The notes below the pieces were generated by a model. The model was not told where the DNA came from and ran no database searches. It was given only the letters and a program-made list of their open reading frames with translations. Below, one piece after another: positions 62,591 to 63,583 of a stretch of DNA of 64,000 bases. Both the position numbers and the translations under genes were made by a program. Each line of letters opens with the position of its first letter. Position 1 is the first letter of the stretch. The DNA comes from a virus (taxonomy: Duplodnaviria > Caudoviricetes): IMG/VR virus record IMGVR_UViG_3300042139_000023. One strand, given 5' to 3'.

Positions 62591-62600
62591 CCTGGATCGG

Positions 62601-62630
62601 TTGACCTAGGCCAGCAACACCCGGTAGAGT
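62601..62630 (+). promoter_or_regulatory. HrdB-type promoter TTGACC-N18-TAGAGT overlapped by operator TGACC-TA-GGCCA
   Basis: Near-consensus boxes; drives the second RNA island. Confidence 0.72.
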
Positions 62631-62741
62631 TTCACTTAGTTCGGGAATCCGACACCCGAGCGAAACGCTCCGAACCGGTTACGGCCCGGCTCGGCGCACC
62701 GATCCACCGGAGGCGGTCCGACACGCTTCCGGATGGATCAC

Positions 62742-62815
62742 TGGCGGGTAGCTCAGTTGGTCAGAGCATCGGACTGATAATCCGAAGGTCGAGAGTTCAA
62801 GTCTCTCCCCGCCAA
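62742..62815 (+). tRNA. trnI: tRNA-Ile(GAT)
   Basis: Cloverleaf TGGCGGG/CCCGCCA, loop CT-GAT-AA. Confidence 0.93.
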
Positions 62816-62968
62816 CTGGACCTGAATTACAGGTCCGCATTACCCCCGCTCTCGGCTGTAGAAAGCTGGTGGCGGGGTGACGTACCACTGAGGATTCCGT
62901 TGGGGAGGCACCCCGGGTGGCACCCGGGCCACGGAGTCCGCTGCTCGGCGATTGGCAGGTCGCCGAGC

Positions 62969-63052
62969 GCCCACGTTGTGTAGCGGTCTAGCACATCGCC
63001 CCACTGGTAATTCCAGCGGGCGGAGGCGCCGGTTCAAATCCGGTCGTGGGCT
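62969..63052 (+). ncRNA. tRNA-Glu-like RNA with extended anticodon arm
   Basis: GCCCACG/CGTGGGC acceptor, Glu-type D arm TTGTGTAGCGGTCTAGCAC, T-arm; 18-nt CCACTGGTAATTCCAGCG in place of the 7-nt loop. Confidence 0.72.
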
Positions 63053-63136
63053 CTCCGGTTGGAGTGGAAGATGAATCGGACGATTCCGTGTAGAACTCCT
63101 GAAAGCGGAATCTGGGCTGGACTATTGGGTCTGGCG

Positions 63137-63254
63137 GTGCATGTGCCTGAGCGGCCTAAAGGTGCCTGCTGAAGCTCTCCCAGGAGTGGGGGCAGGCGAC
63201 CTGACGGAACTGGGATTTCCGGAGGGTCCACGGGTTCGAATCCCGTCGTGCACA
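63137..63254 (+). ncRNA. Class II tRNA-like RNA with 22-nt anticodon-position loop and very long variable arm
   Basis: GTGCATG/CGTGCAC-A acceptor, CCT-GAGCGGCCTAA-AGG D arm, CCTGC/GCAGG stem, ACGGG-TTCGAAT-CCCGT T arm. Confidence 0.7.
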
Positions 63255-63264
63255 CGTGAACGGA

Positions 63265-63402
63265 ATGGAGAAGGAAAAGGAGAAGCCGGTCGGGCCGGTC
63301 GTTCTCCAGGAGGACGGAATCACGTTCCTCTCCGTCAAGGAGCTGGACGACTACCGCGAGCAGAAGATCCTGCTCGCCTGGCAGGAAGGTGCATATGTCT
63401 GA
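63265..63402 (+). CDS. Possible 45-aa hypothetical protein
   Basis: Open frame with GC3 bias; start uncertain. Confidence 0.4.
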   Translation: MEKEKEKPVGPVVLQEDGITFLSVKELDDYREQKILLAWQEGAYV

Positions 63403-63583
63403 CGCTGACGCCCTGGATGCCGCATCCGATGCGGTGAACTCCGGGCCCGCAGCAACGCAGTCGCACTCCATCGGCAACTACGGATCCAGCGAGCTGACTC
63501 GCACGGAGGTTCCGGACAAGCCGCAGGCCAAGATGAGCGGTGTTCCGCCGGAGCAGTGGGCCCGCCCCGTTCAGAAGCGCTGA
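63395..63583 (+). CDS. Small hypothetical protein
   Basis: GGAAGG RBS. Confidence 0.6.
   Translation: MSDADALDAASDAVNSGPAATQSHSIGNYGSSELTRTEVPDKPQAKMSGVPPEQWARPVQKR

What the first reader, a model, noticed from the sequence alone, without database searches (positions are those of the whole stretch)
63137..63254. 118-nt class II tRNA-like RNA with oversized anticodon loop and variable arm
Seen: acceptor GTGCATG/CGTGCAC with A73 then C, a Ser/Leu/Tyr-type D arm, a CCTGC/GCAGG stem enclosing 22 nt, a roughly 33-nt variable arm (GACC...GGTC enclosing CGGAA/TTCCG), and a perfect T arm. Established: bacterial LeuRS and SerRS largely ignore the anticodon, relying on A73 and tertiary structure or on the long variable arm. 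Inference: this RNA might still be charged while being unable to decode, acting as a decoy, an amino-acid sink, or a donor for non-ribosomal aminoacyl transfer.
Basis: partly seen in the sequence, partly recalled or inferred. Interest (0 to 1): 0.75.

Follow-up and report, generated by a model that had tools for sequence, protein, structure and literature searches.

The report
Anticodon-less class II tRNA mimic
A small group of large Streptomyces phages carries a conserved gene for an RNA shaped like a long-armed tRNA whose anticodon loop is replaced by a closed hairpin, so it cannot read codons and most likely acts as a tRNA look-alike; its exact job is unknown.

Summary
Window 63137-63254 (+) folds into a class II cloverleaf. 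It has a 7-bp acceptor stem, A73, a Tyr/Ser-type D arm, a canonical T arm and all elbow nucleotides, plus a 31-nt variable arm.

The "22-nt anticodon loop" is not a loop. It is a purine-rich internal loop (UGAA/GGRG), a 5-bp helix and an invariant YCCA tetraloop.

I found 12 distinct homologues, one per genome where whole records were searched. All come from BM-cluster Streptomyces phages (Frankenweenie, Satis, JustBecause, Kela) and related soil viral contigs. On an alignment of 11 of them, 98% of cells pair, 18 pairs show compensatory changes, and 0 of 500 shuffles reach this.

Rfam tRNA, Rfam YrlA and default ARAGORN all miss it. ARAGORN in intron mode finds the body but names a different "anticodon" in different orthologues.

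The gene lies behind a conserved promoter, after tRNA-Ile and a second sealed-anticodon tRNA mimic. It sits about 2 kb upstream of Y RNAs and a Ro60 gene.

My reading: it is a new, lineage-restricted, non-decoding tRNA mimic. It is probably cut out by RNase P and RNase Z and probably serves as a decoy or adaptor for a tRNA-binding protein. Charging is neither supported nor excluded.

This scan has noted other anticodon-less tRNA-shaped phage RNA families on other DNA.

The parts
62601..62630 (+). Promoter-like site TTGACC-N18-TAGAGT, upstream of the RNA cluster
   Evidence: 1 site found against 0.2 expected. The hexamers are conserved in relatives.
62742..62816 (+). Ordinary tRNA-Ile(GAU), the first gene of the cluster
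   Evidence: ARAGORN. Rfam tRNA 77.4 bits.
62969..63053 (+). tRNA-like-1: a class I tRNA body whose 17-nt 'loop' folds into an invariant CUGG/CCAG helix. It does not decode.
   Evidence: Rfam tRNA 46.4 bits with 17 nt inserted in the anticodon loop. In alignment A4 the extension is deleted in Satis and L005. Annotated as tRNA-OTHER, Undet or His in relatives.
63117..63134 (+). Conserved hairpin 2 nt upstream of the element's 5' end
   Evidence: Alignment A1: stems CTGGAC/GTCTGG, CCGGAC/GTCCGG, CCGGG/CCCGG and TCAGGG/CCCTGA, that is, compensatory changes.
63137..63254 (+). The whole 118-nt class II tRNA-shaped RNA, G1 to A73
   Evidence: Model R1 scores it at 134.8 bits.
63146..63162 (+). D arm: 3-bp stem and 11-nt loop with invariant A14, G15 and GG. 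It is of the Tyr/Ser type.
   Evidence: Invariant columns in A3. Compared with actinobacterial tRNA-Tyr and tRNA-Ser.
63164..63197 (+). Extended, closed 'anticodon' arm: a 7-bp stem, then the internal loop GAA/GGR, then a 5-bp helix, then the YCCA tetraloop (63179-63182)
   Evidence: Four of the five extension-helix pairs change on both sides. UGAA and CCAG are invariant.
63198..63228 (+). 31-nt variable arm: two helices, an internal loop and a loop holding the invariant CUGG (63210-63213)
   Evidence: All four outer pairs and two inner pairs change on both sides.
63230..63246 (+). Canonical T arm with loop TTCGAAT
63256..63402 (+). Conserved 48-aa ORF. Its GTG start lies 1 nt after the discriminator.
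   Evidence: No Pfam or PHROG family matches.

Best explanation
This is a real, selected gene for a non-decoding class II tRNA mimic. It probably descends from a tRNA-Tyr or tRNA-Ser gene. It is confined to BM-cluster Streptomyces phages and their soil relatives.

Proposed mechanism (all steps inferred):
1. It is transcribed from the conserved promoter at 62601-62630, together with tRNA-Ile, tRNA-like-1 and the small ORFs.
2. Host RNase P and RNase Z excise it, because the acceptor stem, T arm and D/T elbow are fully canonical.
3. The RNase Z cut would also leave the downstream mRNA almost leaderless.
4. The mature RNA cannot enter decoding, because its anticodon end is a closed helix.
5. It therefore acts as a stable look-alike that occupies or recruits a tRNA-recognising protein.
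6. The invariant internal loop (UGAA/GGRG), the YCCA tetraloop and the CUGG variable-arm loop supply the specific contact. The two loops may form a loop-loop CCAG:CUGG duplex.

The most likely setting is the phage's tRNA / Y RNA / Ro60 module. One example would be an uncleavable competitor for a host nuclease or enzyme directed at class II tRNAs.
For: Shown:
- Cloverleaf with strong covariation.
- 55 of 118 columns are invariant across nine genomes. Mean pairwise identity is 0.77, equal to the functional tRNA-Ile (0.79) and above the spacers (0.54 and 0.71).
- 1-nt indels between orthologues exclude a coding region.
- One copy per genome in three complete phage records.
- No 7-nt loop, and no consistent anticodon across orthologues.
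- U8, A14, G15-C48, G18G19 and the T loop are all invariant.
- The promoter is conserved.
- The synteny tRNA-Ile / tRNA-like-1 / element / small ORF / YrlA-like RNA / TROVE holds even in the divergent contig L005.
- The neighbouring mimic is also sealed, and carries the same CUGG and CCAG as an invariant helix.

Precedent: Hughes et al. [quoted passage not shown]
Against: - There are no expression data, no mapped ends and no known binding partner.
- A complete relative, the 259.6-kb contig G103 (L061), keeps the synteny and Ro60 but lacks the element. The element is therefore accessory.
- The loop-loop pairing has no real covariation support. Four of its five pairs never vary, and 186 of 500 shuffles do as well.
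- A decoy for an anticodon nuclease would be expected to keep an anticodon-like loop.
- Co-location with Ro60 is weak evidence, because Ro60 genes in actinophages generally sit among tRNA genes.
Confidence: 0.5

Rival explanations
1. Processing signal only. The tRNA shape serves as an RNase P / RNase Z 'punctuation mark' that releases and stabilises the downstream small-ORF mRNA. The RNA itself has no role in trans.
For: - In BM-core phages the GTG that the Frankenweenie record annotates as the ORF start lies 1 nt after A73, with no room for a Shine-Dalgarno sequence. In Frankenweenie I saw no other in-frame start.
- The junction A-C-GTGAACG is invariant in the five phage sequences first aligned.
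- No terminator was found in the cluster.
Against: - A minihelix or any tRNA would do this job. It does not explain the covarying extension helix and variable arm, or the invariant loops.
- L005 and L061 use a normal Shine-Dalgarno sequence for the same ORF.
- This role could coexist with a trans function.
Confidence: 0.15
2. Chargeable but non-decoding tRNA. Host SerRS, or TyrRS or LeuRS, aminoacylates it after CCA addition. It then acts as an amino-acid sink or as a donor for a non-ribosomal aminoacyl transferase.
For: - Intact acceptor stem, elbow and long variable arm, with A73.
- Tyr/Ser-like core.
- SerRS and LeuRS largely ignore the anticodon (established knowledge).
Against: - The tRNA-Ser genes I printed have G73, and TyrRS also reads G34/U35 (my knowledge).
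- The D loop and G15-C48 are not of the Leu type.
- The variable arm starts with no unpaired 44/45 nucleotides, unlike the tRNA-Tyr and tRNA-Ser seen. Its orientation, which is the main class II discriminator, may therefore differ.
- No aaRS, CCA-adding or Pth domain was found in three complete relatives.
- I looked for no aminoacyl-transferase family. None appears in the annotated tables I read around the locus.
Confidence: 0.12
3. An extra Ro60 partner. It would be a Y-RNA-like adaptor whose tRNA body tethers Ro60 to tRNA-handling enzymes or gates its substrates.
For: - It is always on the same strand, roughly 1-2.5 kb upstream of the YrlA-like RNAs and the TROVE gene.
- Chen et al. 2014 (PMC4201824) report Ro60-bound RNAs that escaped bioinformatic detection. 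They also describe D. radiodurans Yrn1 as having a tRNA-like orientation different from YrlA.
Against: - No YrlA match even at E <= 10.
- It has no terminal Ro-binding stem of the kind shared by the Y-RNA units next to Ro60.
- Ro60 phages outside the clade lack it, and so does G103, which has Ro60.
- The Ro60 gene itself comes in two very different types within the clade (72% against 37-39% identity to the L005 protein), while the element stays constant.
Confidence: 0.12
4. Precursor of a decoding tRNA. The inserted hairpin is an intron that a nuclease removes and a ligase rejoins.
For: - The 5' half of the 'loop' reads C-U-G-A-A, like positions 32-36 of a tRNA, and is invariant.
- Some relatives carry an RNA ligase nearby.
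Against: - The internal loop is symmetric, not a bulge-helix-bulge.
- Removing the hairpin leaves 8-10 nt, not 7.
- GGR varies, so no reading gives a fixed sensible anticodon for a class II body.
- The ligase is absent from Frankenweenie and Satis.
- The neighbouring mimic cannot be turned into a decoder either.
Confidence: 0.04
5. A decaying tRNA pseudogene with no function.
For: The standard tRNA finders do not call it.
Against: Compensatory changes occur in every helix, including the inserted one. It is as conserved as tRNA-Ile.
Confidence: 0.03

Closest known systems
Bacterial class II tRNAs, especially actinobacterial tRNA-Tyr(GUA) and tRNA-Ser(GCU)
   Same: - 7-bp acceptor stem, 3-bp D stem with an 11-nt loop, G15-C48, a canonical T arm and a long helical variable arm.
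- A73, as in tRNA-Tyr.
- These are the best non-family matches to the model, at 46-52 bits.
   Different: - No 7-nt anticodon loop, no U33 in a loop context and no anticodon.
- The variable arm is 31 nt, against 13-23 nt in the tRNA-Tyr and tRNA-Ser I printed, and has no unpaired 44/45 nucleotides.
- It fails the Rfam tRNA model and default ARAGORN.
YrlA / bacterial and phage Y RNAs with a tRNA-like domain (Rfam RF02553; Chen et al. 2014, PMC4201824)
   Same: - A non-decoding RNA with a tRNA-type D/T elbow, encoded near a Ro60 gene.
- A competitive-inhibitor role has been proposed for YrlA (PMC7790460).
   Different: - YrlA is circularly permuted: its ends lie at the 'anticodon' side within a Ro-binding stem, and its acceptor stem is closed. 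Here the ends are at the acceptor stem and the anticodon side is closed.
- No RF02553 match.
- The same phages carry separate YrlA-like RNAs next to Ro60.
Phage T4 stable RNAs species 1 and 2 (rnaC, rnaD) in the tRNA gene cluster. From my own knowledge, not checked here.
   Same: Small stable RNAs of unknown function, co-transcribed and co-processed with phage tRNAs and having tRNA-like ends.
   Different: No sequence relation was tested. The T4 RNAs are not class II cloverleaves with a sealed anticodon arm.
tRNA-like-1 of the same cluster (window 62969-63053)
   Same: A sealed anticodon arm, in the same operon, with the same CUGG and CCAG tetramers.
   Different: A class I body with discriminator U. 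Its extension is dispensable, being deleted in Satis and L005.

Membership tests
tRNA (Rfam RF00005; decoding tRNA) | Score at or above the family's gathering threshold of 29 bits | tested here: not met
   No RF00005 match at 63137-63254, even at E <= 10. The neighbours score 77 and 46 bits.
tRNA (Rfam RF00005; decoding tRNA) | 7-nt anticodon loop with U33 and an anticodon that is conserved among orthologues | tested here: not met
   The loop is replaced by an internal loop, a 5-bp helix and a tetraloop. ARAGORN in intron mode gives Arg, Ala, Phe or Leu across orthologues.
tRNA (Rfam RF00005; decoding tRNA) | Acceptor stem, D arm, T arm and the tertiary-contact nucleotides (U8, A14, G15-C48, G18G19, TPsiC) | tested here: met
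   All are present and invariant in A3. The helices covary.
Class II tRNA (Ser/Leu/Tyr) | Long base-paired variable arm and a 3-bp D stem | tested here: met
   The variable-arm helices covary. The best non-family model matches are tRNA-Tyr and tRNA-Ser.
Class II tRNA (Ser/Leu/Tyr) | Aminoacylation by SerRS, LeuRS or TyrRS | not testable with these tools
   The sequence gives only A73 and a Tyr/Ser-like core. No phage aaRS was found.
YrlA / Y RNA (Rfam RF02553) | Match to the covariance model | tested here: not met
   No match at E <= 10 in 62600-63400. Separate sub-threshold YrlA matches lie next to Ro60 in Frankenweenie (30.8 bits) and L005 (41.7 bits).
YrlA / Y RNA (Rfam RF02553) | 5' and 3' ends form the Ro60-binding stem, and the tRNA-like domain is permuted | tested here: not met
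   The ends form an ordinary 7-bp acceptor stem. The order of parts is the standard tRNA order.
YrlA / Y RNA (Rfam RF02553) | Encoded within a few kb of a Ro60 (TROVE) gene | tested here: met
   Roughly 1-2.5 kb upstream, on the same strand, in the records I examined: Frankenweenie, Satis, JustBecause, Kela, L005, L060 and L008. The window itself ends before Ro60.
YrlA / Y RNA (Rfam RF02553) | Physical binding to Ro60 | not testable with these tools
   Needs immunoprecipitation.
Intron-bearing pre-tRNA (archaeal/eukaryal type) | Bulge-helix-bulge motif at the splice sites, and a 7-nt loop after excision | tested here: not met
   The internal loop is a symmetric 3x3. The residue after removing the hairpin is 8-10 nt.
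tmRNA | Call by ARAGORN, with a tag reading frame | tested here: not met
   No tmRNA was called in the window.

The most novel reading that the evidence does not exclude
The RNA is a purpose-built, uncleavable mimic of a class II tRNA. Its anticodon tip and variable-arm loop lock together through a CCAG:CUGG kissing contact. With this shape it either blocks a host defence enzyme that attacks tRNA-Tyr or tRNA-Ser, or it is charged and used outside the ribosome. Together with its sealed neighbour, it would represent a general phage strategy of 'anticodon-less tRNAs'.
Probability: 0.2. Interest if true: 0.75.

Novelty: new variant of a known kind. Interest (0 to 1): 0.5.

Why it matters
Phage tRNA genes are usually read as codon-usage helpers or as replacements for tRNAs that the host cleaves. 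This is a well-supported case of a phage keeping the whole tRNA body under selection while deliberately closing off the decoding end. A second such RNA sits beside it, and Y RNAs and Ro60 lie close by.

It gives a concrete RNA to test in cultivable phage-host pairs (Satis or JustBecause on S. lividans; Frankenweenie or Kela on S. scabiei). The question it opens is what tRNA mimics do during infection: decoy, adaptor or processing signal.

It also exposes an annotation problem. JustBecause lists part of the element as a 72-nt "tRNA-Ser". Kela places it inside a CDS. Frankenweenie and Satis do not annotate it at all.

Tried and rejected
- **Standard finders.** Rfam at gathering threshold and at E <= 10 and default ARAGORN do not call the element.
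- **Bacterial genomes, pattern scan.** The scan gave 13 hits, all chance. None matches model R1 at E <= 0.001.
- **Metagenomes, pattern scan.** Of 30 hits, 24 were chance and 6 real. Only 2 of the 6 added new sequences.
- **Actinomycetota genomes.** Model R1 over 101 genomes gave nothing above 52 bits, so the element was not found in those searched. Three of these genomes (G002, G049, G089) are unpublished. This count rests partly on them, and so does one typed tRNA-Ser locus (L076).
- **Other Ro60 actinophages.** GiJojo, Atuin, Rabbitrun and BRock have no homologue near Ro60.
- **Public sequencing runs.** RNA-library contigs cover tRNA-Ile and the ORFs at 63273-63524. One 151-nt contig from a run that is probably DNA covers 63104-63253. 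No conclusion on expression is possible.
- **Pth-like lead.** Other notes of this scan reported a Pth-like neighbour gene. None was found here.
- **Other enzyme domains.** No class II aaRS core (Ser type), no TyrRS-type domain and no CCA-adding domain.
- **RNA ligase link.** Rejected as obligatory, because the ligase is absent from Frankenweenie and Satis.
- **Loop-loop pairing.** Possible, but covariation does not decide it.
- **Not available.** No whole genome is held for this window. The supplement of Chen et al. 2014 is not held.
- **Literature.** The searches found no description of this RNA.

Full report
**1. The observation**

- a 7-bp acceptor stem (GTGCATG with CGTGCAC), followed by A73 and then C;
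- a D arm with a 3-bp stem and an 11-nt loop;
- an anticodon-type stem;
- a long variable arm;
- a T arm with the loop TTCGAAT.

RNAfold returns this cloverleaf as the minimum-energy structure, at -56 kcal/mol and z = -2.77.

One detail needs correcting. The 22 nt inside the anticodon stem are not a loop. They fold into a 3x3 purine-rich internal loop (GAA opposite GGR, flanked by a U-G pair), a 5-bp helix and a CCCA tetraloop. The "anticodon arm" is therefore a closed rod of about 15 stacked layers, with no 7-nt loop.

**2. It is a conserved gene, not chance**

*Where homologues were found.*
- The window comes from a large Streptomyces phage of the BM cluster. The locus is 87% identical to Frankenweenie and about 74% identical to Satis, Quantum, Kradal, EhyElimayoE, Kela and JustBecause.
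- A pattern taken from the invariant part of the extended arm found five IMG/VR contigs and six soil or rhizosphere metagenome contigs that hold the element.
- A search with the upstream FtsK-like protein added one more variant, L060.

*Structure support.*
- Eleven distinct sequences (alignment A3) support the cloverleaf. Of all cells, 98.2% form standard pairs. Eighteen of 40 pairs change on both sides. None of 500 shuffles reaches these values. Slid controls pair at only 33-50%.
- The inserted helix covaries in four of its five pairs. Both variable-arm helices covary too.
- RNAalifold predicts the same structure independently.

*Why it is not coding.* Single-base indels between orthologues rule out a coding reading, although Kela annotates a CDS across it.

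*How conserved it is.* In nine genomes the element is as conserved as the functional tRNA-Ile next to it (mean pairwise identity 0.77 against 0.79). It is more conserved than the spacers (0.54 and 0.71).

*How distinct it is.* A covariance model (R1) scores family members at 110-139 bits and ordinary tRNAs at 52 bits or less. It finds exactly one copy in each of three complete phage records.

**3. What kind of RNA it is**

The tRNA core is intact. U8, A14, G15 with C48, G18G19, A21 and the T loop are all invariant.

In 101 Actinomycetota genomes, the 24 best matches to the model were 13 tRNA-Tyr(GUA) and 11 tRNA-Ser. None was tRNA-Leu. Three of those genomes (G002, G049, G089) are unpublished. 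The D arm is nearly the same as that of actinobacterial tRNA-Tyr or tRNA-Ser(GCU), and A73 matches tRNA-Tyr. The body therefore looks derived from a Tyr or Ser tRNA gene.

It nevertheless fails as a decoding tRNA:
- Rfam's tRNA model does not report it even at E <= 10.
- Default ARAGORN does not call it.
- ARAGORN in intron mode recognises the full body but names Arg(gcg), Ala(ggc), Phe(gaa) or Leu(gag) in different orthologues.
- Removing the hairpin leaves 8-10 nt rather than 7, and the 3' side (GGR) varies.
- The internal loop is symmetric, not a bulge-helix-bulge.

The invariant single-stranded features are UGAA, the tetraloop with its closing base (CCAG), GGRG, and CUGG in the variable-arm loop.

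CCAG and CUGG are complementary, so a loop-loop contact of 4-5 bp is possible in 94.5% of cells. Four of its five pairs never vary, however, and the fifth shows one compensatory change (Satis) and three mismatches. Covariation therefore cannot decide the question.

**4. Context**

A promoter-like site at 62601-62630 is conserved in relatives. After it come, in order:
1. tRNA-Ile(GAU);
2. a second odd RNA at 62969-63053;
3. a conserved hairpin;
4. the element;
5. one base later, the GTG of a conserved 48-aa ORF;
6. a 64-aa ORF and a TerF-type vWA gene.

No terminator was found.

The second odd RNA is a class I tRNA body. Its anticodon loop is replaced by an invariant CUGG/CCAG helix. In Satis and L005 that extension is simply missing, which leaves a 3-nt or 6-nt loop. 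It is also a non-decoder.

Downstream in the relatives lie YrlA-like RNAs and a TROVE/Ro60 gene. Earlier notes of this scan describe three Y-RNA units just beyond the end of this window. Y RNAs of the usual kind are thus already present, which makes it less likely that the element is "the" Y RNA.

Several facts limit the link to neighbouring genes:
- An RNA ligase (PF09414) is nearby in JustBecause, Kela and L005 but absent from Frankenweenie and Satis.
- Ro60 genes in other actinophages also sit among tRNA genes, and those phages lack the element.
- A complete 259.6-kb relative (L061, handle G103) keeps the FtsK-like gene, a tRNA, the homologue of the first mimic, the small ORF and Ro60. It lacks the element at the syntenic site and anywhere else at family-level score.

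The element is therefore an accessory, lineage-specific addition.

**5. Mechanism**

*Shown:* a selected, structured, single-copy RNA gene that does not decode and has a complete tRNA core.

*Inferred:*
- It is co-transcribed with tRNA-Ile and excised by host RNase P and RNase Z, which need only the acceptor/T minihelix and the elbow.
- CCA would have to be added by the host enzyme. CCA is not encoded, and I found no phage CCA-adding enzyme.
- The RNase Z cut after A73 would leave the ORF48 message with a 1-nt leader. In BM-core phages the GTG annotated as the start lies there, with no room for a ribosome-binding site. L005 and L061 use a normal ribosome-binding site instead.

The processing role is real but cannot be the whole story. 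It does not explain the covarying extension and variable arm, or the invariant loops.

My best reading is a tRNA mimic. It would occupy or recruit a tRNA-recognising protein through its invariant distal motifs, within the phage's RNA-handling module. [quoted passage not shown]

I found nothing that supports charging:
- no phage SerRS-type, TyrRS-type or Pth domain;
- A73 rather than the G73 of the tRNA-Ser genes I printed;
- no anticodon for TyrRS to read;
- no Leu-type D loop.

It cannot be excluded by sequence alone.

**6. Comparison and novelty**

The RNA works like other tRNA look-alikes (YrlA; the T4 stable RNAs, which I know only from memory). It is not a member of any family I could test. 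It fails the tRNA and YrlA models, and its topology is the reverse of YrlA's: the ends are at the acceptor stem and the anticodon side is closed.

No paper found in five literature searches describes it. The genome announcements only count tRNAs.

Notes from this scan report several other anticodon-less tRNA-shaped RNA families in other phages (unchecked AI notes). The general theme is therefore recurring, while this family appears to be new.

I class it as a new variant of a known kind. Interest is moderate: the structural evidence is solid, but the function is unknown.

**7. Expression**

Public runs gave no usable evidence. Contigs from soil RNA libraries cover the downstream ORFs but not the element. 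One 151-nt contig across the element comes from a run that is probably DNA.

Noticed in passing
window 62969-63053 (+): A second non-decoding tRNA-shaped RNA. It has a class I body and discriminator U, and its anticodon loop is replaced by an invariant CUGG/CCAG helix. The extension is deleted in Satis and L005. In the distant relative L061 the homologue has a 7-nt loop with A33.
   Followed up: partly
window 63254-63265: The conserved 48-aa ORF starts at a GTG 1 nt after the discriminator A73, with no room for a Shine-Dalgarno sequence. An RNase Z cut would give a nearly leaderless mRNA. L005 and L061 have a normal Shine-Dalgarno sequence for the same ORF.
   Followed up: partly
L086:144-261 (G103:C1:133743-133860) and L087:84-210 (G103:C1:131233-131359): Two unannotated long tRNA-shaped RNAs in the main tRNA array of a 259.6-kb relative. 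One is a 118-nt class II body with the loop ACGCAAU (C33) and a variable arm of about 48 nt. The other is a 127-nt body with 61 nt between the anticodon-stem strands. Satis 125662-125779 and 126448-126542 are weaker candidates.
   Followed up: partly
window 62601-62630: The promoter-like TTGACC-N18-TAGAGT is conserved across BM phages and more distant contigs. This suggests one transcript for tRNA-Ile, both mimics and the small ORFs.
   Followed up: partly
window 63117-63134: A hairpin with compensatory changes lies 2 nt upstream of the element's 5' end. The spacer 63054-63136 is unusually conserved (34 of 83 columns invariant) and contains another invariant CTGGG.
   Followed up: no
L002:2104-2175 and L004:2073-2318: Annotation errors in relatives. 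JustBecause lists the 3' 72 nt of the element as tRNA-Ser (the default ARAGORN call, gga). Kela extends a CDS across the element. Frankenweenie and Satis leave it unannotated.
   Followed up: yes
L005:4459-6057; Frankenweenie gene 147; Kela gene 136: The Ro60 (TROVE) genes of this phage group fall into two very different types. Identity to the L005 protein is 72% for the Satis type and 37-39% for the Frankenweenie/Kela type. The upstream RNA cluster is nonetheless conserved. This suggests the Ro60 gene was replaced.
   Followed up: no
L005:6476-7030: A protein with a phage ProQ C-terminal-like domain (PF24203) lies directly after Ro60, and an RNA ligase (PF09414) lies directly before it. This makes a compact cluster of RNA-handling genes.
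   Followed up: no
window 63273-63524: Contigs from two soil metatranscriptome libraries match the small ORFs downstream of the element exactly. DNA carry-over cannot be excluded.
   Followed up: no
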